IMG/VR virus record: IMGVR_UViG_3300021197_001584
Span: 1-64,000 of that record
Length of the DNA: 64,000 nt
Source: a virus
Strand: one strand, 5' to 3'
Part shown: positions 19,837 through 34,723 of the stretch, in pieces
How positions within the stretch are numbered: position 1 is the stretch's first letter
How the letters are laid out: each line of letters starts with the position of its first letter
Notes under the pieces: model-generated
Database searches by the model: none
Seen by the model: only the letters and a program-made list of their open reading frames with translations
What the model was told of the DNA's origin: nothing
Program-made: the position numbers and the translations under genes

Positions 19837-19838
19837 TG

Positions 19839-20264
19839 TTATCCCTTTGCTAATTTTGACCATAGAGCCGAAGATGTTCCGAAAGCTGACAAGTCAACGC
19901 CGGGATCATTTGGTGCAACGCCATCAAGAGCTTTCGCTCCTTGTGGTGATGTTGCTGATCTCCCGCTATCTCTGCTAGACAAAGGCGTTGTTCCTTCGAA
20001 CAAGTCGACTCCGTTAAAAGAGTCTCTACCAATTGAGTCAAGCATTTTGCGACGTTGTTCTTTACGCTTCCGCTCTTGGGCTTCGTAATCGATTTGTGGT
20101 TTTTGATAAGTTGGTTGTGCTTGAGTCTCGACGATACGCTGACCACCAGTCCCTTTCACAACCTCTGAAATAATTCCGGAGAGAACTCCTTCTTCAAAGA
20201 TTACTTCTTTTATGCACTCTTTTATGAGTGGCTTTAAAGTTTTTCTTAATTGTTCTTTGTTCAT
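19839..20264 (-). CDS. Hypothetical head-module protein
   Basis: 141 aa; N-terminus LKPLIKECIKEV resembles the shared leader motif. Confidence 0.55.
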   Translation of the reverse strand: MNKEQLRKTLKPLIKECIKEVIFEEGVLSGIISEVVKGTGGQRIVETQAQPTYQKPQIDYEAQERKRKEQRRKMLDSIGRDSFNGVDLFEGTTPLSSRDSGRSATSPQGAKALDGVAPNDPGVDLSAFGTSSALWSKLAKG

Positions 20265-20888
20265 TTAGTCTCCAAGAATCTTCTTAAATAGATTGTCAAT
20301 GTTATTTTCTTTTTGTTCTCGCAACTTTGTTGAGAAACGAGATGGCTTATTAGGGCCTCCTTTCGGATAAACATAGGCATCTGGCGTTGACGGTTCTGAC
20401 ACAATGTCAAAGCAGATAAGTTGGAAATCTTCTTGAACAACGGTCTGTCCTCTTGACTCTGATACGGATCCAAGTCCACGAGATGAAATTCCAAGTTTCA
20501 CACCAGCATTGATGAGGTCCTTTAGAATTCTACCGCTAGGAGTGTCGAGGATCTTGATCTTGCCCATTACATCTCTTCCCTCCCACCAACACTCTGTGAC
20601 GATGTGAGAAACGTTTTTAAGGTTAATTACGGAGTCGTCAGGGTGATCTAATTCACCTGTCGCTCTGTTATCCTTGATAATTTTTTGATAGTTTTCGATT
20701 TCACGTTTGAGGACTTTGTCTGGATACACACGACCATTACCGTTTTGCTTCTCGGCAGTTTGGATGCGACCAGTTAAGTACATCGCACCATTGTCTGTGA
20801 TGTCTCTCTTTTCTCTTTCGGTAAGCAAGTCTTGACACATTCCATCTGGACATAGTGCATGAAATTCTCTTAGCAATTTTTTTGACAT
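20265..20888 (-). CDS. Prohead protease (T4 gp21-like)
   Basis: NGNGRVYP, GELDHP, TPSG, GISSRGLGS and FDIVSEPST motifs; start taken at MSKKLLRE. Confidence 0.92.
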   Translation of the reverse strand: MSKKLLREFHALCPDGMCQDLLTEREKRDITDNGAMYLTGRIQTAEKQNGNGRVYPDKVLKREIENYQKIIKDNRATGELDHPDDSVINLKNVSHIVTECWWEGRDVMGKIKILDTPSGRILKDLINAGVKLGISSRGLGSVSESRGQTVVQEDFQLICFDIVSEPSTPDAYVYPKGGPNKPSRFSTKLREQKENNIDNLFKKILGD

Positions 20889-20901
20889 TTCTTTCTCCAA
20901 T

Positions 20902-20953: not shown

Positions 20954-21013
20954 CTAGGAGCCGCTGCAACAGCGACGGACAGGTTGTAAAACCCAGCGCT
21001 TAATCATCAACAT
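20954..21013 (-). CDS. Putative 19-aa peptide MLMIKRWVLQPVRRCCSGS
   Basis: Read directly. ATG preceded by GGGGGTGAG, overlaps the upstream stop, ends in TAG just before the hairpins; below the ORF-track cutoff. Confidence 0.5.
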   Translation of the reverse strand: MLMIKRWVLQPVRRCCSGS

Positions 21014-21329: not shown

Positions 21330-21339
21330 GAGAACCTCG

Positions 21340-21975: not shown

Positions 21976-22780
21976 TGCGCTTTACCTCCGCTAAAAGGTC
22001 TTGAATGTAAAATATCTCTTCGACTACGGCCTCATTTAAAGGCTGAGATGCGTAGTTGTCCAGCTTTGCCTTAACTTTTTTAAAATTTTCATTTAAGGCA
22101 CTATTACGTCCTTCTACAATCTCGGCGCTTACGGCTTCTTTGAGACGTCCGATTTCCGAATTTAGATAAGACTTAAGTCCCAATCCATTATCGGAAAATG
22201 ATGTAATAAAGTTTGTCAAAAGCTCTTTCTGCTCTGTTAACAAAGAATGTTCATAAGTGTCGTTAAATCTGTTAACGAACATTTTGAATTCTAACTTGTC
22301 GAGATGTTTCATTTCTGTTAAAACCTTTTCTGATCTACAAAGGTATCTCACACAATTGTCTTCAAGCATTATGCGCTTCTTTGCAGAGAGATTGTCTTGT
22401 TGCAAGAACAAGCCTACTGTTGCAAGGTCTTTGTAGTTTGGAACGAAGATCCCAAATGAGTCAGAACCCAGTGCTTTATTGATTCTGTTAATGAGCTTTG
22501 TTTGCTCATTGAACACTTCTCTTCGATCTATGGAATCAAAGTCCTTCTTTGTTTCAGCCAATAGACGGCGTGAGTAATTAGCTTTCAAATCCTTTGACTC
22601 AAGAAGAGATCGATAGATCTCAAGTTCACGAGCTAGTGTTGTTCCTTTTGTAAAGAACTCTTTTAGGATTGCTTTTACGATTTGCTGCTCTTGTTTGTTT
22701 TCGCGAATGACAGACTTTGTCAATGAGCGAACAAGGCATTCGTAAAGAAAAGCGGTATTTCTTTTCTTATTGTGTTTCAT
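21965..22780 (-). CDS. Hypothetical helical protein downstream of the portal (possible prohead core component)
   Basis: 271 aa starting MKHNKKRNT; AGGAG SD; overlaps both neighbours. Confidence 0.6.
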   Translation of the reverse strand: MKHNKKRNTAFLYECLVRSLTKSVIRENKQEQQIVKAILKEFFTKGTTLARELEIYRSLLESKDLKANYSRRLLAETKKDFDSIDRREVFNEQTKLINRINKALGSDSFGIFVPNYKDLATVGLFLQQDNLSAKKRIMLEDNCVRYLCRSEKVLTEMKHLDKLEFKMFVNRFNDTYEHSLLTEQKELLTNFITSFSDNGLGLKSYLNSEIGRLKEAVSAEIVEGRNSALNENFKKVKAKLDNYASQPLNEAVVEEIFYIQDLLAEVKRNVS

Positions 22781-24659
22781 CCTGATCTCCTTTCATGGTT
22801 AGTGATTCTAATAGTGTTCTAATTTCAGCTTCAGATTTAAATAGTTGGCTTTCTTCGAAATCGGTAGATTCTGTTACACCTCGAGCTAATGAGTCTAAAC
22901 CACCAAATCCGACTTTGCCGGGAAAGGTCTTGCGAGCAGTTCCGATCTCACCAGAAGCAGTGTTGTTCATTTGTTTTTTCATTCCACCTTTTCTATAAGT
23001 CAACTTGTGCCGCTTGTAAGGTCCTCGGGGTTTTGCATCATCATCACGCTTTGCTGGAGGTTCTGCCATTAGATCGGGTTCGCCACCAGAATCACCACCA
23101 GCGTCATCGCCAGCGTCATCGCTTCCTGTATCTAAGTCCCCACCTAAATCATCCCCGCCTAGGTCGAGGTCTCCACCTCCACCGCCAGAGTCACCGCCGC
23201 CTTCATCTCCTTGACCAGCCCCTTCGAGAGCGTTCATGAACTTCTTATCGCTAAACATTTCACGTTGCATTCGCAAGTATTCTTCTTGTGACAAACCGAG
23301 TAAGTTTTCAGAAACCCAACGACGAGAGAAGTAGCCTTCTGTTGCTGCTCCTGCAATGTCAAACTTTGTCTTCCAATGTTCGAGTTCTTGCATCTCGGCA
23401 ATCTTTGATGGATTATTAAGACGAAGCTTGAAGTTCAACAGATCATCATCGCGATATCCCATTGTGTAAAGATGAACAATTCCAACTTTCTCAAGTTCCG
23501 AAATGAGAACTCGTTGAAGTCTCTGAATGGTTCTTGCGAATCGGATGTCCTTTTGAGCAAGAGTTGTCTTGTCTTCAGTTGCTCCTTCACCCATCGATAG
23601 ATATGATTGTGGAACTTTGAGAGCAGAAAATAGTTTGTCTCGAAGATATTTGACATCTTCGATCTGTGCTGTAAATTGTCCTCCAGGAAGGTTCTCAATG
23701 TTCGTAGAGGACTGTCCGCCTCTAACTGGGATAAAGTAGTCCTCTTCAATCGAAAGTGGGTTGTAGCGTAAATCTACGCGACCTGTGGTTGGGTCAACAA
23801 CTTGGTGACGCTTCATCTGAGTCATGACTTTTTGCATGTATTGTTCAACGTCTTGAGGTGCGATTCCACCAACGTCAATCTTGAAAACACGACGCTCTGG
23901 TGAGCGAGTGATTCTGTAAGCCATCATGGCATCTTCCAATAGCGTAAGTTGTCTCCAGATCCGTCTAGCGGGCTCTAGGACGCTTGTTCCGTAAGGAGCA
24001 TGTTTGTCATTACCTAACACTCTAAAGTGCGCTATTTGCCAATTTTCGAGCGTTAAAGAGGCATTGTTCCATTGGTATTGAACATAGTTGGGATTTGTTG
24101 GATCCTCGCCTTCAAGTCTCTCGACTTCTTGAGGAGGAAGTCCGATGCAGTTTTGGATTCCTTTGCTCTCGTCAATGTCGAGATAGACAAATAGGTCTCC
24201 GTACTTACACATGGTTCTCGCCCAGCCGAAGAGGTTGTGTTCAACATTCATGATGTTGTAGTAAAGATTGTGCAAAATGTATTTGATTTCATCATTTGTG
24301 CAATTGATGTGGAGCATTGGAGTCAATGCTGAGTGAGTTGTCATCTCGTCTGCGTAAATGTCGAGAGAAGATGCAATCTCTGGTGTAAATTCCATTTGGT
24401 CGAAATCGATGTAACGCTCTGCTCGGTTTCTGTTCGAGATCATGTTGAGCGTCATGATGTTCATTGGGTTGTATTCGGTCTTCTTGAACTGCTGACCTGA
24501 TGCGGACTTGAAACGCTTTGCGTAAATATCCAAGTGGCGTCGTCGGAGTTGTCGTCCTGATTGTGTTCGTCGTTGGGTCAGAGGCCCCGAGAACATTCTA
24601 GTTAAAGCTTTGAATAAATCGTTTTGATTGTTATTCGGGTTTCTTTCGTTGCGAGCCAT
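22767..24659 (-). CDS. Portal protein (T4 gp20-like)
   Basis: 630 aa; PYGTSVLEPARRIWRQL.LLEDAMMAYRITRSPERRVFKIDVG, EEDYFIPVRG, LFSALKVP. Confidence 0.95.
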   Translation of the reverse strand: MARNERNPNNNQNDLFKALTRMFSGPLTQRRTQSGRQLRRRHLDIYAKRFKSASGQQFKKTEYNPMNIMTLNMISNRNRAERYIDFDQMEFTPEIASSLDIYADEMTTHSALTPMLHINCTNDEIKYILHNLYYNIMNVEHNLFGWARTMCKYGDLFVYLDIDESKGIQNCIGLPPQEVERLEGEDPTNPNYVQYQWNNASLTLENWQIAHFRVLGNDKHAPYGTSVLEPARRIWRQLTLLEDAMMAYRITRSPERRVFKIDVGGIAPQDVEQYMQKVMTQMKRHQVVDPTTGRVDLRYNPLSIEEDYFIPVRGGQSSTNIENLPGGQFTAQIEDVKYLRDKLFSALKVPQSYLSMGEGATEDKTTLAQKDIRFARTIQRLQRVLISELEKVGIVHLYTMGYRDDDLLNFKLRLNNPSKIAEMQELEHWKTKFDIAGAATEGYFSRRWVSENLLGLSQEEYLRMQREMFSDKKFMNALEGAGQGDEGGGDSGGGGGDLDLGGDDLGGDLDTGSDDAGDDAGGDSGGEPDLMAEPPAKRDDDAKPRGPYKRHKLTYRKGGMKKQMNNTASGEIGTARKTFPGKVGFGGLDSLARGVTESTDFEESQLFKSEAEIRTLLESLTMKGDQDETQ

Positions 24660-24662
24660 TTT

Positions 24663-26240
24663 CTATCCTTTGTAAATCCAGAGAAATTCTTTTGTCTTCT
24701 CTATTTCCTCCCTATGTTTTTCGTTAAACGTTTCGTTATAGAACTTTTGACCTTTGATTTGCGTGTTCATGGTTGTGGTGCTTTTAAAAACACCTCCAAG
24801 CATTGCTTTCTTATATGCCATGTCTCGTTCGTTTTCAGCCAAGGCAGTGTCTCTAACCCAGCAAGCGATTGCCAAAGACATTACGAGATCATCATTGTAA
24901 GAACGCATTGCTTGAGGTTTACCATTGAACCAAATAAAAGTCTTCAATTCGTGAAAAACTCTAGCGGAGTGCATAGTAATTAGTTTGTTTCTGACGTACT
25001 CCTCCAATTTAGCCACGATTAAAGGTCTTGTTTTGGTAGATGTGGTGAAGCCCATGACTGCTCGGTCGTCATTCTCAGCAAGGTAGGCTTCGACATATTC
25101 GTGAGTTGACTTGATAGAATAGTAAAGTTTTTTATAATTCATATCTTTTAGCTTCTCGAGAACAGCAATTCCAACACCAACATTTTCAACAACGAGCAAA
25201 CATGTGCCATACTCTGTTCCTGCATCATAAAGGATCTTTGAGTACATGTCAAGGTCTGGTTTGCCTTGATATTCTGCAACAACAGTCATTGTGTCAACGC
25301 GGAGGATGTGAAAGCAACTATAGTCAGCTCCGTCACCTCGAGCAACATCGGCCGACAAAAGGTAAGGAACGCCTTCTTCAAATTTTTCCCAAATCCAAAA
25401 GTTACGATCATAGCCCACTCGATATTGTGGATCGCAGACATCGCTATGGATTCTCTGTAGATCCTCGGGATTAACAACAGTCTCACCAGAAGCATTGAAT
25501 GAGCACTCCAACTCCTGTGCGATTTGTCTCTTGGACATGTTGTTTGTCTCTTTGTCGAACCATGCTTGGTCTCGATCTGGGTGAACATCCCAATGGAGTT
25601 TCGTTGGAAAGAAATCGTTGTTCCCTGATTCAGATTCCGTGTAGGTTTTGTGGAACCAGTTTCCAACGCCGTTAGGGGTGCTTAGAGCGATGCAGCGGCC
25701 CCCTGTAGACAAAGTAGGGTAAAGACCCGTCCAAAGCTCGTCGAGGCCGTCAACGAACGCTGCCTCGTCTATAATAAGAAGCGACAAAGCTTCCGAACGA
25801 CCAGCGTCACCTGATGTGGTTCCAGCTTTTACTTGAGAGCCGTTTGTAAGTTCGAATGATTGTTTGTTGTCCGTTTGGATCTTTGCGATTAGCATCCAAG
25901 ACGGAAGGTTCTTGAAGATCATCTTGACCTTCTTTACAAGATTTGTTGCTGTGGATAGTTTGGTTGCGATGACGAGAACATTCTTTTCTCGGTGAAATAA
26001 CATAAACCAAGCAACATAGGCAGCCGAGATGGTTGAGATCCCGAGCTGTCTTGCTTTTAAGATTACGTTAAAACGATAATCGTTAAAGGACTTGAGCATG
26101 TCTTTCTGATAGTCATAAGTCTTGAAAGGAATTTGACCATGCATAGGATGCGAGATCTTACAATAATTGTCAATGAAGTATTGAGGATCCTTTCCGCACT
26201 TTACAAGTTCTTTAACGATTTCATTTTTTGTAAGTTTCAT
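24663..26240 (-). CDS. Terminase large subunit (T4 gp17-like)
   Basis: 525 aa; KARQLGIST (Walker A), LLIIDEAAF (Walker B), STPNG, nuclease DVARG..D and DDLVMSLA. Confidence 0.95.
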   Translation of the reverse strand: MKLTKNEIVKELVKCGKDPQYFIDNYCKISHPMHGQIPFKTYDYQKDMLKSFNDYRFNVILKARQLGISTISAAYVAWFMLFHREKNVLVIATKLSTATNLVKKVKMIFKNLPSWMLIAKIQTDNKQSFELTNGSQVKAGTTSGDAGRSEALSLLIIDEAAFVDGLDELWTGLYPTLSTGGRCIALSTPNGVGNWFHKTYTESESGNNDFFPTKLHWDVHPDRDQAWFDKETNNMSKRQIAQELECSFNASGETVVNPEDLQRIHSDVCDPQYRVGYDRNFWIWEKFEEGVPYLLSADVARGDGADYSCFHILRVDTMTVVAEYQGKPDLDMYSKILYDAGTEYGTCLLVVENVGVGIAVLEKLKDMNYKKLYYSIKSTHEYVEAYLAENDDRAVMGFTTSTKTRPLIVAKLEEYVRNKLITMHSARVFHELKTFIWFNGKPQAMRSYNDDLVMSLAIACWVRDTALAENERDMAYKKAMLGGVFKSTTTMNTQIKGQKFYNETFNEKHREEIEKTKEFLWIYKG

Positions 26241-26252
26241 TTTTGGTGAGTT

Positions 26253-26771
26253 TTAATTTCGATTCATAACCGTGCCTCTTTCATCTTGAGACAATCTTAA
26301 GATTTCATTAAATTCTTCTCTAATCCTCTTTTTTTCTCTTTGCATCGTTGGTTTACTGCTCCCACTGCAGTAATGATTGATCTTATTACTGTATAGGCGT
26401 AAAATCCCACTCATAATTCTTGCATCGCAGGGGTCGATTTTTTTAGATTCAATGGCATCGAACAAATATTTTTCTTGTTCATCGGCAGTGGGAAACCTAG
26501 ATTTCATGTTGAATGCATTCTTGAATGCATTCAAACCTGCTTTTTTTAAATTTTTAGATGTAAGCTCTGGATTGTCGTCAAAGGGGTCTAATGGTTGTCC
26601 AGATGGACCTAGTGGAATAAATTCGAATGACTCTGGTGCTTGTTGTTGAGGCTCTTCCTTATTCTTTTTTTTCCCAAAACCGAAGAATCCTTCGTCAAGA
26701 TCTTGTTCGTTAACAACGGCGTCAAGCTCTTCTTTGATGATTCGTTTTAAAGTTTCTTTTGTAAGTTTCAT
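26253..26771 (-). CDS. Hypothetical protein with MKLTKETLKRIIKEEL leader
   Basis: 172 aa; ATGA overlap with the upstream gene. Confidence 0.65.
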   Translation of the reverse strand: MKLTKETLKRIIKEELDAVVNEQDLDEGFFGFGKKKNKEEPQQQAPESFEFIPLGPSGQPLDPFDDNPELTSKNLKKAGLNAFKNAFNMKSRFPTADEQEKYLFDAIESKKIDPCDARIMSGILRLYSNKINHYCSGSSKPTMQREKKRIREEFNEILRLSQDERGTVMNRN

Positions 26772-27328
26772 TTTTGATTATCTCCAGCCTTAATCTTTTC
26801 GTTTTGAGGACGCTTTGCTTTTGCGAACTCTAAAAACTTTTTTGTAATGTCATTAGTGGTATTTTCCGAAGGCTCCAACATCTCATCCATTTGTAAGCCG
26901 CCAATCTTGTAGTGTTGATAGGCTTGAACAAATGTTCGAACGTTTGAGGTTGTCTGAACGATAACCTGTGGTTCGCCCTTTGCAGTCAAGGAGACAGACT
27001 TTCCAGTGATTGCTTTGTATTCTTTTTGTAAGAACTTCTTAACTTCATTAATGGTTCTCATGATTTCATTTTCAAAACCACTTTCTTTCAAGTCTCGCAT
27101 CATGACATCTGATTGGTAATTGATGATCATGGAGTTTCCGTAAAACTTTACTTTAAAGCCATCGATGACTCGCTTGTCGAGCAAAGGGATGCCTTGCTCT
27201 CGCATAAGTCCGGTCTTTCGTGCTTTGCCATCATGGGAGTAGTTCTCCATGTGTTGTCCGCCGTCGTATGAACCGTTGGCGGCTGCTTGGGAAAGTCCCT
27301 GTATGATTTCTAATGTTTCTTTGCTCAT
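26768..27328 (-). CDS. Hypothetical protein
   Basis: 186-aa ORF in the operon; GAGG SD. Confidence 0.6.
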   Translation of the reverse strand: MSKETLEIIQGLSQAAANGSYDGGQHMENYSHDGKARKTGLMREQGIPLLDKRVIDGFKVKFYGNSMIINYQSDVMMRDLKESGFENEIMRTINEVKKFLQKEYKAITGKSVSLTAKGEPQVIVQTTSNVRTFVQAYQHYKIGGLQMDEMLEPSENTTNDITKKFLEFAKAKRPQNEKIKAGDNQK

Positions 27329-27344
27329 TTGTTTTTAGCCTCTT

Positions 27345-27656
27345 TTATTGATTCATTTTTTCTTTGATTGCCGAAACTAATTTCTGCACTTCTGGTGGGA
27401 GAGTCTGGATATAATCCGTTGCCATCTCGCTACCCTGGACAAGAATGGTTCCAGGAGAACCATCTTTTGGATAATAAGCTATAACATTTGTTCCTCTATC
27501 ATCTACAACTTTAATTTGGTCACCAAGACCTAGTTTTTCTGCAGCTAATTTGGCAAACTCCATAACGTCTGCGCCCATGTCTTCTGGTCCTTCCGCCATC
27601 ACTGCAGCTAATTCTTCTTTGATGATTTGTTTTAATGTTTGCTTTGTAAGTTTCAT
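27345..27656 (-). CDS. Hypothetical protein with MKLTKQTLKQIIKEEL leader
   Basis: 103 aa; start reassigned to the ATGA overlap with a GGAG SD. Confidence 0.65.
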   Translation of the reverse strand: MKLTKQTLKQIIKEELAAVMAEGPEDMGADVMEFAKLAAEKLGLGDQIKVVDDRGTNVIAYYPKDGSPGTILVQGSEMATDYIQTLPPEVQKLVSAIKEKMNQ

Positions 27657-28021
27657 TTGTTTGGTCTCCAGCCTTTTTTCCATCTTTCTTCTCGGCCTTC
27701 TATCCATTGGATGTAACATTTGTAGCAACAATCAAATTTCGTCATGTAAAGATCATCAACGGATTTGAATGAATAAGTGTTGCAAGTTGGACATGAACGC
27801 TCGGATTCTTTATTAAGTAGTTCTTTTGAGATTAAAACTCCATCTAGATCTACCTTTTGAGCCTCGGCTTTACCAAGTCTATAGTTGGACTTGAGTTCGT
27901 CGAGATACTCTTTTTCTTTCTCGTCATCCCAGTGGGACTTGGGATTGGCTACTGCTTCTTGGCCGTACTTTTCTGCAATTGCTTTTTCGACCTTTACGGC
28001 GTAATTTGGATCTTTGCTCAT
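27653..28021 (-). CDS. Putative zinc-binding protein
   Basis: 122 aa; CPTC..CCYKC. Confidence 0.55.
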   Translation of the reverse strand: MSKDPNYAVKVEKAIAEKYGQEAVANPKSHWDDEKEKEYLDELKSNYRLGKAEAQKVDLDGVLISKELLNKESERSCPTCNTYSFKSVDDLYMTKFDCCYKCYIQWIEGREERWKKGWRPNK

Positions 28022-28428
28022 TTAACACTCACTTCTATTTGATTTGCAGCATAGTAAGTCAAAAGAGATGCTGATGTTCCGAGGACAAAGCCACCGAAGA
28101 ACACCCAAGTTTGCCTTTTGGTGTTTGAGTTTCTTCTAAGAACCTCGATCTCTTCGTCTTTGATTTCGATCATCGCATCGTATTTTGTTTGCAATGCTGT
28201 CTTTTCTATATCTAAATAGTCAATTTGACGCTGTTTTTCCGCAAGTTGAAGTGAAAAATCTAAAGCAGCATTGATCGTACACTGTTCTTCTGTGAACTCT
28301 TTCATGGCTATTATAGATACAACCGCCTCATCATTAAACAGTCTACCGGCAAAAGGTGCAACTTCTCCTTCAGATAAAGGAGTCATCAACGGGGTTGCAG
28401 TTGCGAGTGCAGTCAAAAGCCAAATCAT
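28018..28428 (-). CDS. Exported/membrane coiled-coil protein (spanin-like candidate)
   Basis: N-terminal signal-like segment, coiled coil and a C-terminal TM (WVFFGGFVLG). Confidence 0.45.
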   Translation of the reverse strand: MIWLLTALATATPLMTPLSEGEVAPFAGRLFNDEAVVSIIAMKEFTEEQCTINAALDFSLQLAEKQRQIDYLDIEKTALQTKYDAMIEIKDEEIEVLRRNSNTKRQTWVFFGGFVLGTSASLLTYYAANQIEVSVK

Positions 28429-28814
28429 TTTAGCCTCGAGATGTTTAACTCTTCCATTAGAATGCGATCAATGGCATCCGGGTCTTCCTTGGCTAGCTCA
28501 ATCAATTCAAGCTTTCGATTTACCGTCTCTCTCTCGAGTTCGGTCTGGGCTTGTCTATGTTGTCTTCTCAAGGCTGTTCGAGACTGCATGTATTTTTTGT
28601 TGGCTCGAGCAAGTCTCAACTTTTCCTCAGCTGAAATCTCTTCGATTACTTCAATTTCTTTTTCTTTTGCTTTGACGGTTGCTTCTGCGGCTTCGACTTG
28701 CTTCTCTTTACTTTTACGTCCGAGAACGAAAACGGTCAATACGACAACACCGGAAGCGATCAGCTCCCACTTATCCTTAATCCAATCCCACTTATCCTTA
28801 ATCCAGTTCGACAT
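28425..28814 (-). CDS. N-terminal TM plus coiled coil (i-spanin-like candidate)
   Basis: Starts MSNWIKDKWDWIKDKW; TM LIASGVVVLTVFVLG; charged coiled coil. Confidence 0.45.
   Translation of the reverse strand: MSNWIKDKWDWIKDKWELIASGVVVLTVFVLGRKSKEKQVEAAEATVKAKEKEIEVIEEISAEEKLRLARANKKYMQSRTALRRQHRQAQTELERETVNRKLELIELAKEDPDAIDRILMEELNISRLK
28765..28805. repeat. 21-nt-period tandem duplication
   Basis: TCCCACTTATCCTTAATCCA occurs twice and encodes WIKDKW(D/E) twice. Confidence 0.85.
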
Positions 28815-29029
28815 TATCCGTGCCTCCATGTTCTTGCGAAGTCAATCGCAGTTTGGCCACCAATATAAGTCATGGCAATCATTCCCCATGTTTCGGCATC
28901 GAGACCAACGCCCAAATACAAAAGGGCAGTAGCGACAGCGAACACAAGGAGCTTTCGTGAAATTGCCCTCTCCATTACGCTATCGATAATGCCCTTCTTT
29001 TCATTTTTATTCTCATTAGAGTCTTGCAT
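28814..29029 (-). CDS. Putative holin (2 TM)
   Basis: 71 aa; SRKLLVFAVATALL..WGMIAMTYIGGQ; late motif and AAGGAG upstream. Confidence 0.55.
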   Translation of the reverse strand: MQDSNENKNEKKGIIDSVMERAISRKLLVFAVATALLYLGVGLDAETWGMIAMTYIGGQTAIDFARTWRHG

Positions 29030-29068
29030 AGTATTTCTCCTTTGCTTGGCCCTAACTAGTTCTTAACG

Positions 29069-32000
29069 CTACAATTTGACTTGTGCATAGCCATCAGTCT
29101 TATCTATATCGATTGACATATCGACTATGTCTTTCAATCCTTCTAGGTGAGTAATCAATAGAACAGTCTTGAATTGTGCTTTGATCATTTGCAACAGTCT
29201 CGTGAAGCCTTCCATGTGCTCTGCATCCAACGCTGTGGCTGGTTCATCAAGAACAAATATGTTTGACTTTGGCAAAGATGAAACAGAAATCAACGCAAGA
29301 CGAACAGCCATCGATGCAATTGTCTTCTCGGCACCTGAACCCATAGATAAAGGTCGTGGATCATAGTTTGGATGCTTCAGATAGACTTCAAGCTTATCTC
29401 CATCTTCTGCAAAGAATACTTGGAACTCAACAATTGACGAAAGAACTTTTTGGATCTCATCATTGATTACTGGGAGCATTGACTTGATAACCTCATAAGA
29501 GATTCCATTTGCATGTGTCGCCTTTACAAAGATGTCGTAAGCAATGTAGTCACGTTCGGCAGCAGAGATTTGATCGATTTTTTCTTTTGCTTCTTCAATA
29601 ATTCGCTTTGCAGATCCCTTCTCGGACATGAACTCTAGAACTTTTGACTCACAAATTTTGATCTCCGCTGCTTTTAGTGACACAGTCTTATTGATTGCTT
29701 GTAGATCTCGACGCAATGAGGATAGGTTTTCATAGGCCTCGATGTTGTCGTTGTAGTAAGCGATGTCGGCTTGACGATCATTGATTCTTCGTTCCATTAG
29801 AGACACTTTGCCTTCACAATTTTCCCACTGCAAAGACATGTTGCGAACTTCAGATTGTTCTCTCGCAAGAGTGTCGCGTTGGGCTTCGTAGTCTCGAACA
29901 ACTGCTTGTGAATAAGTTTCGTTGATCAACGATGCTTTCATCTTTAAATCAAGCATTTGAGAATTAAGAGTCTCGATAAGTTCACTAACCTCAACGATTG
30001 TGACCTTTGCTTCTTCTGCTTTCTTTACAAACTCGTTGTTACTGCAGAATTTGCAGTCAGGATCATACTCGTGATCATGGAGCATGTCGATCTTGCTTTG
30101 CAACCTTTGCTTCTCACGTAAAGCCTTGTCTCTAGACTTGGCCGTCTTTTTGATTTCATCTTTAATAATCTTGAAAGTATCAAGATCAGATTGAGCAACT
30201 ACCGACTCCTCAAGCAGAGATGGCAATCTAGCCGTTAAATCTTCGATTCTAGAGCGCTTAGAAGAGATCTCGGTAGATAACCTATCCATCTCACTAGAGT
30301 TCTTTAGAAGAGATTTTTGAGCCTTTGAGAGCGCGTCTTTCAACATATCTATGTCAAGGTCTCTTTGCGAAGCTGCTTCTACTTGATCTCGAATCAATTG
30401 CTGGTCTTCTTTGAGAACTGTCAATCTAGCAGTGTGTTTCTCGCAAAGAGTCTGTTGTGTTTCGATATCCTCAAGGATCTCTGCAAACTCGGCTTGGGCT
30501 CTTGAGAGCTTCTTCTGCCAATCGACTGATGTTAAGTGCTTGATAACTCCTCGCATCTCAGATGAGTCGGTCTTCGCAAGTTTATGCATTTGGTCGAAGA
30601 TCTGGAGATCTAGGAACTTTGCAAGGATCTCTTTGCGTTTTGTCGATCCTTCGTTAATGAATCCGAAAGATTCATTTTGAGCGGCGAGGGAAGTCATCAT
30701 GAAGTCTTCAAGCGAACCAAAGACATTTCTAATATTGTCGTCTGTCTTGTTGCGAGTGTCTCCGTTCTTTGACTCTGCTCTTGTACCAAGCGTTAGTTTT
30801 CGGAAGTTGAGTTCCGTTTTGGCTGAGACGACTTCTCTACCTTTAGACCTTCCGGTTGTTTTTTCGAGGCTTCGATCAATTTTGTAAACATCATCGCCGA
30901 CAGCGATCTCGAGTTTACAAGAAGCTTGTTCTTGGTTTTGATTGATGATATGGACATTCTTTCTTTCTCCTTTTGATGTCGTATTGAAAAGACCAAACAG
31001 TGCAGCATCAATAATAGATGATTTACCTGAATAGTTCTTTCCGAAGATTCCAACAAGGCCGTTTAGCCGGCTGAAATCTAAAGTATTACCTTTTCCGTAA
31101 TTAAATAGGTGGTCCCAACTCATTTTCTTAATATCCCACACAACATTTCTAGCGATAGGCGAGGATGAATCTATCTTCTTTAGATAGTCTCGGGACAATT
31201 CGACAACACGATCTCGAACGGAATCATCGATTTCTCTGCCTTCCATGAATTCTCTGAGGAACTTTTCTTGGTTATCAGGGTTTCTCATGTTCAACGACTT
31301 TCCGTTCTTCGCAGATGCCACATCGTTTGACAATGTGGAATTGTTCACGAAACTGACAGAATGTGTTGACCATTTGACTTGAGCATAGTCACACGCTCTT
31401 TTTAATTTTGCCATTGGCAAGTTGTGATTGCACACAAGTCTCAGACGCGAGTTCTTTGGAACATCGGTCACAGGTAGTGTCCCATCTTGATTGATGTGGA
31501 CAGTAATGAATGGTCGAGGCGATTGGAATAATCTCTTATCGATTGAGTGCTTATCTTTCGAGTGAATGTTCCACATGAGATAACCTTTCAACCTAGATTC
31601 TCCAAAGTTCTGTTGGACGGTCGAACCGGCGTACCAAACTCTTTGATTGAGGTCCATTGATTGGATCTTGTGAATGTCTCCGAGCATTGCATAGTCAAAA
31701 TCTAAAAAGATTGACATGTCATCCTCTCCGTGATCCAGAGAGAATCCAGAGCCAACCTGAGATCCTCGAATAGCACCATGATAAAGAGCGATGTTAATGT
31801 CATTGTTGTTCGATGGCATCTGCCAATTGTCTCTATCAAAGACAGACAAGACATTAAATGTCAAACCATCTTCGGGAGAATATTCTCCTGAGTTCTTCAG
31901 CAAAGTAAAGTTCGGATGCTGCATAGCATCTGCAATGGGCGTTACTGCATCTTGTCGATCACCATTCTTTAAGTTGCCATCGTGATTACCTAAAATCATA

Positions 32001-32236
32001 ATGGTTGGGGCGATGTCTGCCAGAGACTTGAGAAAGTTTGATGCCATCTCGAAGTACTCGGGAGACAACTGTGTCTTCGTGTGAGCTAGATCACCGGTGT
32101 GAACGATGTAGTCTGGCTGCTCTTGTTTCAAGCTATCGTAAATCTGATTGAAAACGTGGCGATATTCATCATGATATTTAAGATTGCGAATGTGTGTGTC
32201 ACTAATGTGAGCGATGCGGAACATTTTGTTCGACAT
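29069..32236 (-). CDS. Fused SbcD/Mre11 nuclease - SbcC/Rad50 ATPase (gp47-gp46 fusion)
   Basis: 1055 aa. Phosphoesterase motifs SDTH, GDLAH, GNHD, GDIH; Walker A GKNYSGKS; coiled coil with CKFC zinc hook; signature-like LSMGSGAE; Walker B FVLDEP; LITH. Confidence 0.9.
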   Translation of the reverse strand: MSNKMFRIAHISDTHIRNLKYHDEYRHVFNQIYDSLKQEQPDYIVHTGDLAHTKTQLSPEYFEMASNFLKSLADIAPTIMILGNHDGNLKNGDRQDAVTPIADAMQHPNFTLLKNSGEYSPEDGLTFNVLSVFDRDNWQMPSNNNDINIALYHGAIRGSQVGSGFSLDHGEDDMSIFLDFDYAMLGDIHKIQSMDLNQRVWYAGSTVQQNFGESRLKGYLMWNIHSKDKHSIDKRLFQSPRPFITVHINQDGTLPVTDVPKNSRLRLVCNHNLPMAKLKRACDYAQVKWSTHSVSFVNNSTLSNDVASAKNGKSLNMRNPDNQEKFLREFMEGREIDDSVRDRVVELSRDYLKKIDSSSPIARNVVWDIKKMSWDHLFNYGKGNTLDFSRLNGLVGIFGKNYSGKSSIIDAALFGLFNTTSKGERKNVHIINQNQEQASCKLEIAVGDDVYKIDRSLEKTTGRSKGREVVSAKTELNFRKLTLGTRAESKNGDTRNKTDDNIRNVFGSLEDFMMTSLAAQNESFGFINEGSTKRKEILAKFLDLQIFDQMHKLAKTDSSEMRGVIKHLTSVDWQKKLSRAQAEFAEILEDIETQQTLCEKHTARLTVLKEDQQLIRDQVEAASQRDLDIDMLKDALSKAQKSLLKNSSEMDRLSTEISSKRSRIEDLTARLPSLLEESVVAQSDLDTFKIIKDEIKKTAKSRDKALREKQRLQSKIDMLHDHEYDPDCKFCSNNEFVKKAEEAKVTIVEVSELIETLNSQMLDLKMKASLINETYSQAVVRDYEAQRDTLAREQSEVRNMSLQWENCEGKVSLMERRINDRQADIAYYNDNIEAYENLSSLRRDLQAINKTVSLKAAEIKICESKVLEFMSEKGSAKRIIEEAKEKIDQISAAERDYIAYDIFVKATHANGISYEVIKSMLPVINDEIQKVLSSIVEFQVFFAEDGDKLEVYLKHPNYDPRPLSMGSGAEKTIASMAVRLALISVSSLPKSNIFVLDEPATALDAEHMEGFTRLLQMIKAQFKTVLLITHLEGLKDIVDMSIDIDKTDGYAQVKL

Positions 32237-32260
32237 AAGTCCTCCTGTTTGTTTGGCTAC

Positions 32261-32566
32261 TTATAATGTAACATGTTTTGTTTTGAGTGTCAAGTATTTT
32301 TCTTCAAATTCATCATAAAAAATTGGACCTCCATCCATGAAAGTCAAGTCAAAAATGTTGTAGTCAAACCACTCTAGCGCCATTACAGCATCCCATCCGT
32401 AGGCATCTTTTAGACACTGGAGTAACGCGTCAACATTGTAGACCAATCGACTTTCTTTTCTATGAAATTCTTTTAAAGAGTCCTCGAACACTTCTTTTGG
32501 CTCCAAGACCATAAACTCATGACCATCTTCAATGGCATCTTCTATTATTTTATCAGCTAAATTCAT
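32261..32566 (-). CDS. Hypothetical protein
   Basis: 101 aa, acidic; ALEWFDYNI motif; own promoter and AGGAGG SD. Confidence 0.65.
   Translation of the reverse strand: MNLADKIIEDAIEDGHEFMVLEPKEVFEDSLKEFHRKESRLVYNVDALLQCLKDAYGWDAVMALEWFDYNIFDLTFMDGGPIFYDEFEEKYLTLKTKHVTL
32265..32293 (-). promoter_or_regulatory. sigma70-type promoter for the sbcDC fusion
   Basis: TTGACA-17 nt-TACATT with extended TG. Confidence 0.75.
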
Positions 32567-32591
32567 CGTAACCTCCTAAAGTTCACATTAT

Positions 32592-32620
32592 AATATAACA
32601 TGATTTAGGAACGTTGTCAA
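32592..32620 (-). promoter_or_regulatory. sigma70-type promoter
   Basis: TTGACA-17 nt-TATATT with extended TG. Confidence 0.75.
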
Positions 32621-32621
32621 A

Positions 32622-32828
32622 TCAATTGAGAAGAATTATCATTTCGGATGACACTACAATATCAATTCTTCCAAACCTAACAGAATACCACTTTATTTCT
32701 TTTCCAAAATCTACATCTGGTAAGTTATCGAAAGAGACAATAGACAACACAATACCTATGTTTGGCGTTGTTTCGCTCTTGAAATCTTCTAAAAACTCAA
32801 CCAAACTTCCAATTTGAATGTTCTCCAC
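32622..32828 (-). CDS. Small hypothetical protein (SH3-like beta fold possible)
   Basis: 68 aa; IQIGSLV..IGIVL..WYSVRF; GGAGG SD and late motif upstream. Confidence 0.5.
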   Translation of the reverse strand: MENIQIGSLVEFLEDFKSETTPNIGIVLSIVSFDNLPDVDFGKEIKWYSVRFGRIDIVVSSEMIILLN

Positions 32829-32871
32829 ATGAAGCCCTCCACTACTAAATAGTGTCGAGACTAGCGATGAT

Positions 32872-33780
32872 CTACTCGATGTGACCTGTTCCTACAACAG
32901 ACCATTCAAGTTGGACATCAACATAGCCATTAAGGCCTTCGTATGGAACTCTTTGTTGAGAAAATCTTGTCATGTGAATAGCAGTTAATGACCACGTAGG
33001 ATATGATTGGAAATAAGATCCATCAAACATAAAGTATCCACTGTCATTAGTGGAGCACGACACTACACCAAGCAGTTGGCTACCGTCGGGAGAATAGGTT
33101 GCGATTGTAATGTTAAACAAGTCTTGTCCACCAGAAGGGCCCCACGAAAATTGTGTTCCAAACTTTGAGACAACTGCTGCAAAGGCATAGGAGATGTCTA
33201 CATAGCGCATCTCGTATGGCTCGATAAAGTCGAACCCGTGAATTGAACGAAACTGGAATGATGATCCATCTTGGAGTTGGACATTCATATTGACATCTCG
33301 ATCATATTGATATTCTTGAATAAAACCAGTGTAAACGTTCATTCCATTGTTGAAGGCACTAAAGGAGTTCGGATTTCCAAAGACATTAATTGACTGTCCA
33401 ACGTTTTGTGTTGAGACTCCGATTTGGACTGGATTTACGTTGTTAGTGCATTGCCCTGCTTGAGGAAACCGAGTCGGGTGAGTTTCGTTGATTTTGCTAT
33501 GGAACTTAGAATCAAACTGTATTGTGATCTCTTGGCTAACACCCATGCATGCTTGACATGCAACTTGCTCTAGATTAAAGTTTGTAAGCCCAACAGTGCC
33601 CCCTAAGGGCTCTGAGGACGGCTCGGTTGATGGTTCAACTGTTGGTTCGTTTGCCGGTTCTGAAGATGGTTCTATCGACGCTGTGTCGACTGTTTGCGTT
33701 GCCGTCTCTGTTGATTGGACCTTTTCTGTTGTTCTAATTCCGATGTCTCCACCGCAGGCCAAAAATAAGGCTAATAGCAT
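32872..33780 (-). CDS. Lipoprotein with EPS/T-repeat linker
   Basis: 302 aa; very short signal MLLALFLA-C; EPSSEPANEPTVEPSTEPSSEP linker; Cys-containing beta domain. Confidence 0.7.
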   Translation of the reverse strand: MLLALFLACGGDIGIRTTEKVQSTETATQTVDTASIEPSSEPANEPTVEPSTEPSSEPLGGTVGLTNFNLEQVACQACMGVSQEITIQFDSKFHSKINETHPTRFPQAGQCTNNVNPVQIGVSTQNVGQSINVFGNPNSFSAFNNGMNVYTGFIQEYQYDRDVNMNVQLQDGSSFQFRSIHGFDFIEPYEMRYVDISYAFAAVVSKFGTQFSWGPSGGQDLFNITIATYSPDGSQLLGVVSCSTNDSGYFMFDGSYFQSYPTWSLTAIHMTRFSQQRVPYEGLNGYVDVQLEWSVVGTGHIE

Positions 33781-33788
33781 GATAACTC

Positions 33789-33998
33789 CTAGTGTTCGAT
33801 AACAATTATGTAGCCGAGGAACTCTCCTCGCTCATATTCTAGATCGTAGTAGTTCAATAGAGAACAGACAAGATCTTTCATAGCTTCTGAATTTCCGGTA
33901 ATGACCTTCATTCTACGTCGCCAATTGCTATTAATAAATAGTTCGAGTTTGCGTTTAGCGTCTCTATGTGTAGACCCGTGAAGATCAAGTGTCAACAT
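33789..33998 (-). CDS. Stand-alone Smr-domain protein
   Basis: 69 aa from MLTLDLHG (GGAGG SD); LDLHG and KVITG are the Smr signatures. Confidence 0.75.
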   Translation of the reverse strand: MLTLDLHGSTHRDAKRKLELFINSNWRRRMKVITGNSEAMKDLVCSLLNYYDLEYERGEFLGYIIVIEH

Positions 33999-34012
33999 CG
34001 AGCCTCCAAAAT

Positions 34013-34038
34013 AAAAAACCTTGCCGAAGCAAGGTTTT
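34013..34038 (-). terminator. Intrinsic terminator
   Basis: AACCTTG-CTTCGG-CAAGGTT plus T-tract. Confidence 0.75.
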
Positions 34039-34057
34039 GTAAGTAATCGATTATGAA

Positions 34058-34513
34058 TTAGTAGTATTCGTAACCTTGACCCGTGAATGGTCCGCTCATG
34101 GTGTAACCCGCTGTCTCTATAGCATATTTTGTCCAATCAAAGGTGTTATCCATCTGAACTGCATCAGTTGTGCGATTGCCTTCTTGGGCTGTGTGCTCAC
34201 CGTTCGAGCGCCAATGTAAATCAATAGTTTCCCCTGCAGATGCACTGTCTTCATGGCGATAAGGAATTTGAAAACTAACTTCCCAAACGGTCTCATCGTA
34301 ATTGTCATCAATTCTACAATCGTCCATTTTTAATTCACCAATAGAAGCAACTCTTTCTGTAAATTCAGAGCCTTTTAACTGCATGAATAGTCCATTCGCC
34401 CATTCTTGAGCTGCTTGTTTGTGCTCTGGAGGACATTCCTCTTCGTTTTCCATCATTACTCTTTCGAGTTCTTCTTTGATGATTCTTTTTAATGTTTCTT
34501 TTGTAAGTTTCAT
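34058..34513 (-). CDS. Acidic hypothetical protein with MKLTKETLKRIIKEEL leader
   Basis: 151 aa; monocistronic, with its own late motif (34552), AGGAG SD and terminator. Confidence 0.65.
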   Translation of the reverse strand: MKLTKETLKRIIKEELERVMMENEEECPPEHKQAAQEWANGLFMQLKGSEFTERVASIGELKMDDCRIDDNYDETVWEVSFQIPYRHEDSASAGETIDLHWRSNGEHTAQEGNRTTDAVQMDNTFDWTKYAIETAGYTMSGPFTGQGYEYY

Positions 34514-34578
34514 TTGTGGACTCCTAAGTCTTTCGTTTGACGATCTTCACTTAAATAGTCACCAAACATCTATAATGC

Positions 34579-34604
34579 AAAAAAAACCTCTCCGAAGAGA
34601 GGTT
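34579..34604 (-). terminator. Intrinsic terminator after the tRNA
   Basis: AACCTCT-CTTCGG-AGAGGTT plus T-tract. Confidence 0.8.
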
Positions 34605-34647: not shown

Positions 34648-34723
34648 TGGTGGAGATGAGGAGAGTCGAACTCCTGACCCCTTGCGTGCAAAGCAAGTGC
34701 TCTCCCAACTGAGCTACACCCCC
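34648..34723 (-). tRNA. tRNA-Ala(TGC)
   Basis: GGGGGTGTAGCTCAGTTGGGAGAGC..CTTGC-TTTGCAC-GCAAG..GTTCGACTC..CTCCACCA; 76 nt, G3:U70 Ala identity pair, encoded CCA. Confidence 0.96.

What the first reader, a model, noticed from the sequence alone, without database searches (positions are those of the whole stretch)
26253..34513. Portable N-terminal leader MKLTKxTLKxIIKEEL on three otherwise unrelated proteins: candidate capsid-targeting tag
Seen: ORFs 26253..26771, 27345..27656 and 34058..34513 begin with a near-identical 16-aa leader that is also conserved at DNA level (ATGAAACTTACAAA..ATCATCAAAGAAGA). Each continues xxVxxE and then has an unrelated body. 19839..20264 (LKPLIKECIKEV) and the terminase start (MKLTKNEIVKEL) show weaker echoes. 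The 34-kb copy is a stand-alone unit with its own late motif and terminator inside the early island. Known: T4 internal proteins carry a capsid-targeting sequence removed by gp21 after (I/L)xE, and a gp21-like protease is encoded here. Inference: the leader is a modular tag that loads interchangeable cargo proteins (possibly ejected effectors or anti-defence factors) into the prohead.
Basis: partly seen in the sequence, partly recalled or inferred. Interest (0 to 1): 0.8.

Follow-up and report, generated by a model that had tools for sequence, protein, structure and literature searches.

The report
Shared capsid-loading leader on phage proteins
Three unrelated small proteins of this uncultured marine T4-like phage begin with the same 22-residue helix, which is also found on thousands of unrelated proteins in related ocean phages and most likely loads them into the phage head before the head protease cuts it off.

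Summary
Three minus-strand genes (26253-26771, 27345-27656, 34058-34513) start with MKLTK[EQ]TLK[RQ]IIKEEL followed by xxV-Phi-x-E. They share nothing after residue 22.

The leader is not private to this genome:
- Degenerate-DNA scans of IMG/VR returned more than 180 loci. These held 260 complete ORFs in 183 body families.
- A 30-column profile found 10,519 protein clusters among 1.84 billion representatives.
- Copy number reaches 21 per genome.
- Across 185,579 prokaryote genomes the motif appeared only on 5 contigs of marine MAGs.

Evidence pointing to head loading and cleavage:
- Conservation collapses exactly after Phi-x-E at residue 22.
- The same Phi-x-E column aligns with the T4 gp23 cut site in the major capsid protein of all relatives examined.
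- An S77 (gp21-type) protease is present in 13 of 14 large leader-bearing contigs.
- The leader is homologous (hhalign E 7e-8) to the N-terminal helix of a conserved, mostly disordered head-module protein encoded next to the protease.
- Leader genes fill hypervariable slots just upstream of the large terminase. The third copy has the promoter-like motif CTATTTA used by structural genes.

Best reading (about 0.6): a T4-internal-protein-like capsid-targeting propeptide, not homologous in sequence to the T4 one. Packaging, cleavage and ejection are untested, and the cargo functions are unknown. This scan had noted similar leader cassettes at a terminase start in another genome.

The parts
26253..26771 (-). 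Leader protein 1 (172 aa). The leader is residues 1-22 (bases 26706-26771). The gene occupies the variable slot directly upstream of the large terminase.
   Evidence: ORF. Profile A2 hit E 3e-16. One full-length homologue in a Tara viral-fraction sample. The gene ends 12 nt before the terL start.
27345..27656 (-). Leader protein 2 (103 aa from the ATG at 27656). The leader is bases 27591-27656. The gene occupies the slot between conserved genes p122 and p186.
   Evidence: E 1.1e-16. Body homologue in L014. Slot statistics.
34058..34513 (-). Leader protein 3 (151 aa), a stand-alone unit. The leader is bases 34448-34513. The body is a folded alpha/beta domain with no known fold match.
   Evidence: E 2.7e-15. 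Five homologues. AF2 gives helix 5-22, pLDDT below 50 at residues 22-24, and a body at pLDDT 70-86. No PDB fold match.
34552..34558 (-). Promoter-like motif CTATTTA, 39 nt upstream of the start of leader gene 3.
   Evidence: 22 matches in the window, 21 of them on the coding strand, against 6.8 +/- 2.6 expected. Eleven lie 11-61 nt upstream of gene starts, mostly structural genes.
34015..34038 (-). Terminator-like hairpin closing the leader gene 3 unit. A second hairpin at 34585-34604 closes the upstream tRNA-Ala.
20265..20900 (-). Prohead maturation protease, T4 gp21 type (S77).
   Evidence: Pfam PF03420 2.3e-33. PHROG head maturation protease 2.3e-61. 34% identity to T4 gp21, with the GELxHP and SSRGLG blocks conserved.
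19839..20264 (-). 'KEC protein' (141 aa), a conserved head-module protein directly after the protease. Its N-terminal helix is homologous to the leader and ends in I-F-E.
   Evidence: Eight orthologues aligned. hhalign against the leader profile: prob 94.6%, E 7.2e-8, residues 3-27 matched to leader 1-25. AF2 gives helix 3-24 and a mostly disordered remainder. CTATTTA lies 21 nt upstream.
9693..10871 (-). Very acidic 392-aa protein directly upstream of the major capsid gene. It is a candidate gp22-like scaffold, inferred from position and composition only.
   Evidence: Translation. CTATTTA lies 30 nt upstream of the ATG at 10871. No Pfam family.
7815..9674 (-). Major capsid protein, gp23 type. 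The propeptide is predicted to be cut after L57-R58-E59.
   Evidence: Pfam Gp23 5.4e-74. BLASTP to T4 gp23 9e-30. The T4 LTE65|A66 column reads LRE, LKE or ISE in all 7 relatives.
22767..24659 (-). Portal protein, T4 gp20 type.
   Evidence: Pfam Portal_T4 2.5e-82.
24663..26240 (-). Large terminase, T4 gp17 type. It forms the conserved 3' flank of the cargo slot, and its first 15 bases equal the first 15 bases of the leader.
26768..27328 (-). Conserved 186-aa gene ('p186'), function unknown. It flanks both cargo slots.
   Evidence: Homologues in 86 of the 184 leader loci. Slot analysis. No Pfam or PHROG family.
27653..28021 (-). Conserved 122-aa gene ('p122'), the 5' flank of the second cargo slot.
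   Evidence: Homologues in 83 of the 184 leader loci. Slot analysis.

Best explanation
The 22-residue leader is an amphipathic N-terminal helix that acts as a capsid-targeting propeptide.

Proposed mechanism:
- The leader docks the protein it is attached to onto the prohead core of this T4-like phage. The core would comprise a scaffold-like acidic protein, the KEC protein and the S77 protease.
- The protein is then enclosed when the gp23-type shell forms.
- The S77 protease removes the leader after the Phi-x-E at residues 20-22, and possibly also after I12-K13-E14.
- The unrelated body is left inside the head with the DNA.

The leader appears to derive from, or share ancestry with, the N-terminal helix of the KEC core protein. 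New cargo genes are exchanged as cassettes in fixed slots upstream of the terminase gene.

What is shown: modularity, the conservation boundary, motif identity with the capsid-protein cut site, protease co-occurrence, homology to the KEC N-terminus, the cassette slots, the promoter motif and the helix-plus-hinge prediction.

What is inferred: docking, encapsidation, cleavage, and any ejection or effector role.
For: 1. Modularity. Similarity among the three window proteins ends at about residue 22. In IMG/VR, 87 ORFs with the exact motif fall into 46 body families. With a relaxed motif, 260 complete ORFs fall into 183 families. A profile search found 10,519 clusters at E<=1e-3.
2. Boundary. At positions not forced by the search pattern: L16 in 59/71, V19 in 45/71, L/M/I/V at 20 in 67/71, E22 in 63/71. 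Information content falls to background at position 23. The relaxed set shows the same pattern with E at 21 or 22.
3. Protease specificity. In the capsid-protein alignment the T4 L-T-E65|A66 column reads LRE, LKE or ISE in the window, five related contigs and Mel-JY01.
4. Protease presence. S77 is encoded in the window and in 13 of 14 large leader-bearing contigs.
5. Link to a head protein. The KEC family next to the protease matches the leader profile (hhalign E 7.2e-8). KEC orthologues rank 4th to 7th of 1,117 ORFs, directly after the true leaders. KEC is helix 3-24 followed by disorder, which is scaffold-like.
6. Position and expression. Ninety-four of 184 leader loci contain terL. About 36 have a leader gene ending within 30 nt of the terL start. 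The slots hold 26 and 23 body families and are empty (under 80 nt) in about 21 relatives. Copy 3 carries the CTATTTA motif seen before the scaffold, KEC and other structural genes.
7. Selection acts on the protein. All synonymous codons are used in the leader.
8. Structure. AF2 gives helix 5-22 and a low-confidence hinge at 22-24.
9. Restricted to viruses. Only 7 stretches on 5 contigs, all from marine MAGs, in 185,579 prokaryote genomes.
10. Precedent. T-even Ip proteins share only an N-terminal leader that directs packaging and lie in hotspots (PMC12373910, PMC3012670). The T4 CTS is 10-20 residues and is removed by gp21 (PMC5694885).
Against: - There are no virion proteomics, cleavage data or cultured host for any leader-bearing phage.
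- The leader is not detectably similar to the T4 CTS. The profile finds nothing in T4 or in cyanophage S-B64.
- Most bodies are acidic: 72% carry net negative charge, median -4. This is not what one expects for proteins packed with DNA.
- Up to 21 copies per genome is far more than the known T-even Ip sets.
- About 16% of relaxed-set leaders have no Phi-x-E within residues 16-40, although all of them keep I-K-E at 12-14.
- I had no random control set for S77 co-occurrence. Large marine contigs are often T4-like in any case.
- The hhalign E-value applies to a single comparison of short helical segments.
Confidence: 0.6

Rival explanations
1. The leader is a docking or oligomerisation helix that is not linked to the capsid. 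It would bind a conserved phage or host partner such as a chaperone, a polymerase, the ribosome or a protease adaptor, or it would multimerise diverse small effector domains in the cytoplasm. It would not be cleaved.
For: - The leader is an amphipathic, highly charged helix.
- The bodies are acidic, small and very diverse.
- Tandem arrays of up to 13 genes lie far from the head module in 270-290 kb contigs.
- The near-invariance of 16 residues implies a conserved partner but does not identify it.
Against: - This reading does not explain why conservation ends at a Phi-x-E that matches the capsid-protein cut-site column.
- It does not explain the homology to a head-module protein next to the protease.
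- It does not explain the preferred slot at the terminase/portal operon.
- It does not explain the structural-gene promoter motif on copy 3.
Confidence: 0.2
2. The leader proteins are prohead core or scaffold paralogues. They enter the prohead through the same helix as KEC but serve assembly, for example as filler, size determinants or protease regulators. They would be degraded and expelled rather than delivered as cargo.
For: - The leader is homologous to the KEC N-terminus.
- The composition is acidic, like scaffold proteins.
- The genes are placed in the head and packaging module.
- In T4, gp67, gp68 and gp22 are core proteins that gp21 cuts into small pieces (PMC5694885).
Against: - The bodies fall into 183 unrelated families and the slots are empty in some relatives. 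This fits accessory cargo better than essential assembly parts.
- At least one body is predicted to be a compact folded domain rather than a disordered scaffold.
Confidence: 0.12
3. The conserved element works at the nucleic-acid level. It would be a translation-initiation or mRNA element, or a recombination handle for moving cassettes, and the peptide itself would have no function.
For: - The first 15 bases equal the terL start.
- Cassette-like slots exist.
- The 5' end is A-rich.
Against: - Synonymous codons vary freely while the peptide stays invariant. All six Leu codons occur at L8. ATT and ATC are both common at I11 and I12, and GAA and GAG are both common at E15.
- Leader pairs within one locus are barely more alike than pairs from different loci (44.7 against 43.0 of 48 bases).
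- Conservation follows an amphipathic-helix pattern and ends in a protease-type motif.
Confidence: 0.05

Closest known systems
T-even phage internal proteins (IpI, IpII, IpIII and relatives, Alt) with the capsid-targeting sequence (CTS) removed by gp21
   Same: - A short N-terminal peptide is shared by otherwise unrelated small proteins.
- The peptide ends in a hydrophobic-x-Glu motif.
- The phage has a gp21/S77 protease, a gp23 capsid, a gp20 portal and a scaffold core.
- The genes lie in hypervariable hotspots and are dispensable in relatives.
   Different: - There is no sequence similarity to the T4 CTS, and the profile finds nothing in T4.
- The leader is longer: a 16-residue invariant core plus a 6-residue extension, against about 10 residues.
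- It is far more widespread and diverse: more than 10,000 clusters and up to 21 genes per genome.
- The hotspot abuts the terminase gene.
- The bodies are mostly acidic.
- Packaging and cleavage have not been shown.
Propeptides of ejection and inner-body proteins in giant phages (phiKZ, 201phi2-1, SPN3US) cut by a gp21-like protease at (S/A/G)-x-E
   Same: - N-terminal propeptides are removed after Glu by an S77-type protease.
- Paralogues keep identical N-termini while their bodies diverge (SPN3US gp53 and gp54, PMC5694885).
   Different: - Those propeptides are mostly longer than 100 residues.
- Their cleavage motif has a small residue at P3, whereas here it is hydrophobic as in T4.
- No comparable portable leader spread over hundreds of families has been described for them.
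Encapsulin cargo-loading peptides and bacterial microcompartment encapsulation peptides
   Same: A short conserved peptide or amphipathic helix, joined by a flexible linker, is enough to sort unrelated cargo into a protein shell. For encapsulins the shell has the HK97 fold.
   Different: - Encapsulin peptides are C-terminal and are not cleaved.
- Neither system involves a maturation protease or DNA packaging.
- This is an analogy only. It rests on my own knowledge and was not tested here.

Membership tests
T4-type capsid-targeting sequence / internal-protein system | A short N-terminal peptide shared by proteins with otherwise unrelated sequences | tested here: met
   BLASTP similarity ends at about residue 22. 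The ORFs fall into 46 and 183 body families.
T4-type capsid-targeting sequence / internal-protein system | The peptide ends in the prohead-protease cleavage consensus (hydrophobic-x-Glu) | tested here: met
   L/M/I/V at position 20 in 67/71 and E22 in 63/71 at positions not forced by the search. I-K-E at 12-14 is invariant. The same motif sits at the capsid-protein column aligned to the T4 E65|A66 cut site.
T4-type capsid-targeting sequence / internal-protein system | The genome encodes a gp21/S77 protease with gp20, gp23 and gp17-type head genes | tested here: met
   Pfam Peptidase_S77, Portal_T4, Gp23 and Terminase_6N. S77 is present in 13/14 large leader contigs.
T4-type capsid-targeting sequence / internal-protein system | Sequence homology of the leader to the T-even CTS | tested here: not met
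   Leader profile A2 finds no match in the T4 genome at E<=0.1. The resemblance is therefore functional, not family membership by sequence.
T4-type capsid-targeting sequence / internal-protein system | Genes sit in hypervariable, dispensable loci | tested here: met
   Two slots flanked by conserved genes hold 26 and 23 body families. The terL-proximal slot is under 80 nt in about 21 of 81 loci.
T4-type capsid-targeting sequence / internal-protein system | Proteins are incorporated into proheads and the leader is removed by the protease | not testable with these tools
   This needs virion mass spectrometry or reconstitution. The only indirect support is a predicted helix with a low-confidence hinge at residues 22-24.
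T4-type capsid-targeting sequence / internal-protein system | Processed proteins are ejected with the DNA and act on the host (for example by inhibiting restriction) | not testable with these tools
   Bodies have no informative Pfam, PHROG, PDB-fold or Atlas match.
RiPP precursor (conserved leader plus variable core peptide) | A short core peptide after the leader, with a dedicated modifying enzyme nearby | tested here: not met
   Bodies are 40-460 residues, with a median whole-protein length of 116 aa. One is predicted to be a folded domain. The neighbours are terminase, portal and conserved phage genes, not maturation enzymes.

The most novel reading that the evidence does not exclude
A large, uncultured lineage of marine T4-like phages, with genomes from roughly 180 kb to over 280 kb, uses one almost invariant 16-22-residue 'address' helix to load an open-ended repertoire of proteins into the capsid for delivery into the host. 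That repertoire exceeds 10,000 sequence clusters and reaches 21 genes per genome. The helix was copied from a prohead core protein. The genes are swapped as cassettes at fixed slots next to the terminase gene. If so, the leader is a sequence tag that directly lists the injected-protein arsenal of ocean phages.
Probability: 0.45. Interest if true: 0.85.

Novelty: new variant of a known kind. Interest (0 to 1): 0.7.

Why it matters
If the leader is a capsid address, a simple sequence tag would identify thousands of proteins that ocean phages carry in their heads and probably inject. Almost all of these proteins have no known function.

- That would open marine phage counter-defence and host take-over to systematic study.
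- It would show that the T4 internal-protein strategy is ancient and much more widespread than the few T-even examples suggest.
- It would indicate how such a tag arises, namely by copying the N-terminal helix of a core protein.
- It would offer a second, longer natural tag for packaging foreign proteins into T4-like capsids.

The full-text search for the motif found no paper describing it.

Tried and rejected
- tblastn of a 22-residue leader consensus and of the 172-aa protein against 50,697 phage records gave no leader match. Among the phage records checked directly, the profile found nothing in T4 or S-B64, only very weak hits in Mel-JY01 and the Flavobacterium phage immuto, and moderate hits in the uncultured 484-kb record LR756508.1.
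- Pfam, PHROGs, Foldseek against the PDB and the ESM Atlas gave no function for the cargo bodies. Among 150 representatives, Pfam gave one FliG_C hit and one DUF6745 hit, and PHROGs gave six families of unknown function.
- The KEC family shows no similarity to the T4 core proteins gp67 or gp68.
- I rejected the terminase N-terminus as a leader. Its profile score is 2.9. The stretch xKL[TS]KxEIVKE[LI] is conserved TerL sequence in distant relatives.
- Long ORFs with 2-3 internal leader copies first looked like polyproteins with a cleavage site before each leader. The recurring E-[NS]-K before the internal Met is better read as a translated ribosome-binding site (GGAG plus an A-rich spacer). The non-Met first residues (V, L, I, T) fit alternative start codons. 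These ORFs are therefore tandem leader genes without an intervening in-frame stop, and they are not evidence about cleavage.
- The giant-virus-MAG contig L091 could not be classified. It carries DnaJ, AAA_5 and KaiC/RecA-like genes, and the record is not held for a whole-contig search.
- A profile query of 30 residues was too short for the search for homologous proteins.


Full report
**Observation**

The window is the first 64 kb of a 79,471-bp linear virus record that CheckV rates about 44% complete. All long ORFs are on the minus strand. Three ORFs begin with the leader: 26253-26771 (172 aa), 27345-27656 (103 aa from the ATG) and 34058-34513 (151 aa). The leader reads MKLTK[EQ]TLK[RQ]IIKEEL and is followed by DAVVNE, AAVMAE or ERVMME. 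Pairwise BLASTP finds only the first 22-36 residues alike, at E 7e-9 to 3e-8. The DNA of the leader is about 92% conserved but differs at synonymous sites. A six-frame fuzzy scan finds no further copy in the record.

**What the phage is**

Pfam identifies the following genes:
- a gp17-type large terminase (24663-26240);
- a gp20-type portal (22767-24659);
- an S77/gp21-type prohead protease (20265-20900);
- a gp23-type major capsid protein (7815-9674);
- a ribosomal protein bS21 homologue (19642-19863);
- a fused Mre11-Rad50 protein (29069-32236).

The nearest cultured relatives by terminase are Microcystis phage Mel-JY01 and the Flavobacterium 'immuto' phages, at about 45% identity. Mel-JY01 has the same order of protease, small protein and bS21.

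**The leader outside this genome**

- A degenerate DNA pattern encoding MKLTKxTLKxIIKEE found 64 IMG/VR stretches holding 87 ORFs, often 2-3 per contig.
- At positions the pattern did not force, conservation continues: L16 in 59/71, V19 in 45/71, L/M/I/V at position 20 in 67/71 and E22 in 63/71. Information content drops to background at position 23.
- The bodies of these 87 ORFs fall into 46 BLASTP families.
It showed the wider consensus MK[IL]TKx[QRTK]LK[QRKE]IIKEE[LI], with Phi-x-E ending at residue 21 or 22 in about 60% of ORFs.
- Together the scans gave 260 complete ORFs with a median length of 116 aa, in 183 body families.
- A 30-column profile (A2) found 10,519 clusters at E<=1e-3 among 1.84 billion representative proteins. 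The ten clusters whose members I looked up are all metagenomic.
- Copy numbers are 3 in this record, 6 and 2 in two related contigs, and 21 each in two contigs of 273-289 kb. In those large contigs up to 13 leader genes stand in tandem.
- Across one genome for each of 185,579 prokaryote species, the motif occurred in 7 stretches on 5 contigs, all from marine MAGs and including contigs of 101 and 306 kb. The leader is thus essentially confined to viruses.
- No paper in the library contains the motif.

**Protein-level selection**

Synonymous codons vary freely within the invariant peptide. All six Leu codons occur at L8. At I11 and I12, ATT and ATC are both common. At E15, GAA and GAG are both common. 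Pairs of leaders within one locus are hardly more alike than pairs from different loci, at 44.7 against 43.0 of 48 bases. The peptide is what is conserved, not the DNA.

**Link to the head protease**

- The S77 family is present in 13 of 14 large leader-bearing contigs. The one exception is rated 24% complete.
- I aligned the capsid-protein N-termini of the window, five related contigs, Mel-JY01 and T4. The T4 column L-T-E65|A66 is the gp21 cut site of gp23. The site itself is from my own knowledge. The residue count was checked on the sequence shown.
- That column reads LRE, LKE or ISE, followed by S or A, in every relative. The proteases of this lineage therefore very probably cut after hydrophobic-x-Glu, as T4 gp21 does.
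- The leader ends in exactly that motif and also contains an invariant I-K-E at residues 12-14.
- AlphaFold2 on leader protein 3 with five homologues predicts a helix over residues 5-22. Confidence is below 50 at residues 22-24. The alpha/beta body has pLDDT 70-86.

**Link to the prohead core**

- The 141-aa gene directly after the protease (19839-20264) has orthologues next to the protease in all relatives examined. I call it KEC after its invariant K-E-C.
- Their N-termini read xKxxxRxxLKx-Phi-Phi-KEC-Phi-xE-Phi-LxEG.
- A profile-profile comparison with the leader gives probability 94.6% and E 7.2e-8, aligning KEC residues 3-27 with leader residues 1-25.
- In an hmmsearch of 1,117 stop-to-stop ORFs, the KEC orthologues rank directly behind the three true leaders. 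The window's own copy is too diverged to score on its own.
- KEC is predicted as helix 3-24, ending at I-F-E, followed by mostly disordered sequence. This is typical of scaffold or core proteins.
- KEC is not similar to T4 gp67 or gp68.
- A second small head-module protein in the large-genome clade also starts like a leader.

**Position and expression**

- Of the 184 loci recovered only through the leader, 94 contain the large terminase. In about 36 of them a leader gene ends within 30 nt of the terminase start, as in the window.
- The interval between the conserved 186-aa gene and terL ranges from 0 to 1,567 nt. It is under 80 nt in about 21 of 81 loci and holds 43 leader genes of 26 body families.
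- The interval between the conserved 122-aa gene and the 186-aa gene holds 36 leader genes of 23 families. These are cassette slots, and the window fills both.
- The motif CTATTTA occurs 22 times in the window, 21 on the coding strand, against 6.8 expected. Eleven copies lie 11-61 nt before gene starts. These include the scaffold candidate, KEC, several large structural genes, tRNA-Ala and leader gene 3.
- Replication-type genes nearby instead carry TTGACA-N17-TAnAnT promoters.
- Leader gene 3 is bracketed by terminator-like hairpins.

**Interpretation**

The closest known system is the T-even internal-protein family. [quoted passage not shown] The CTS is a 10-20-residue propeptide removed by gp21 and can carry foreign proteins into heads (PMC5694885, PMC3012670). 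The element here has the same architecture and context but a different, longer sequence, since the profile finds nothing in T4. It also has far greater diversity and copy number, and a traceable relationship to a core protein.

I put the capsid-targeting, protease-removed propeptide reading at about 0.6. The remaining probability goes mainly to two alternatives. One is a non-capsid docking or oligomerisation helix (0.2). The other is core or scaffold paralogues that are degraded rather than delivered (0.12). A purely nucleic-acid role is unlikely (0.05) given the synonymous variation.

**Caveats**

- There is no direct evidence of packaging or cleavage.
- The bodies are mostly acidic (72% net negative).
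- There is no matched random control for the S77 association.
- The cargo functions are unknown.
- ORFs with several internal leaders are best explained as tandem genes lacking an in-frame stop, with the ribosome-binding site translated as E-[NS]-K.

My slot analysis agrees with the cassette picture. I did not test the specific recombination scar it describes.

Noticed in passing
window 19642-19863 (-): A ribosomal protein bS21 homologue (Pfam Ribosomal_S21, 1.1e-10) sits inside the head module, directly after the KEC gene. The protease, KEC, bS21 order is kept in the related contigs and in Microcystis phage Mel-JY01, where the gene is annotated RpsU.
   Followed up: partly
window 34648-34723 (-): tRNA-Ala (anticodon TGC) has its own CTATTTA motif 11 nt upstream and a terminator hairpin downstream. 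It lies immediately upstream of leader gene 3. A homologue of that gene in another sample was called with a read-through of the same tRNA, so the synteny is conserved.
   Followed up: partly
window, 22 sites (e.g. 2715, 3579, 7723, 10901, 20285, 32846, 34552, 40980, 63096): The promoter-like motif CTATTTA is strongly strand-biased (21 of 22 sites on the coding strand) and about three times enriched. It usually lies 11-61 nt before structural gene starts. It differs from the T4 late promoter TATAAATA.
   Followed up: partly
window 29069-32236 (-): A single 1,055-aa ORF fuses an Mre11-like phosphoesterase (Metallophos) to a Rad50/SMC-like ATPase. In T4 these are the separate proteins gp47 and gp46. 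It is preceded by a sigma-70-like promoter.
   Followed up: partly
window 33789-33998 (-): A small Smr-domain protein (Pfam Smr, 7.8e-4 on the longer ORF) lies just downstream of the terminator of leader gene 3. The scan had already noted it.
   Followed up: no
window 18168-19187 and 19187-19612 (-): Two adjacent genes share the N-terminal motif YSVGLxxVGxYQVSGxPF. The pair is conserved after bS21 in related contigs. The function is unknown and there is no Pfam hit.
   Followed up: no
window 7815-9674 (-): The gp23-type major capsid protein is 619 aa, against 521 aa in T4. Roughly 200 extra residues lie between the N-terminal arm and the conserved core, which may be an insertion or decoration domain.
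   Followed up: no
proteins P0001, P0002, P0008, P0010: Metagenomic ORFs of 300-630 aa hold 2-3 complete leader-plus-body units in one frame with no stop between them. Before internal leaders the sequence E-[NS]-K-M recurs and looks like a translated ribosome-binding site.
   Followed up: partly
L200 (G006:C1:52000-58600): About 14 consecutive small genes on a 289-kb contig all begin with a variant leader M[KR][IL]TKRQL[KR]RII[RK]EE. This is a very dense tandem array of leader genes far from the head module.
   Followed up: partly
window 21000-21449 (-) and relatives (L065-L069): A small, apparently membrane-spanning protein with a conserved CPxC motif is encoded just upstream of the prohead protease in all relatives. 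The function is unknown and there is no Pfam hit.
   Followed up: no
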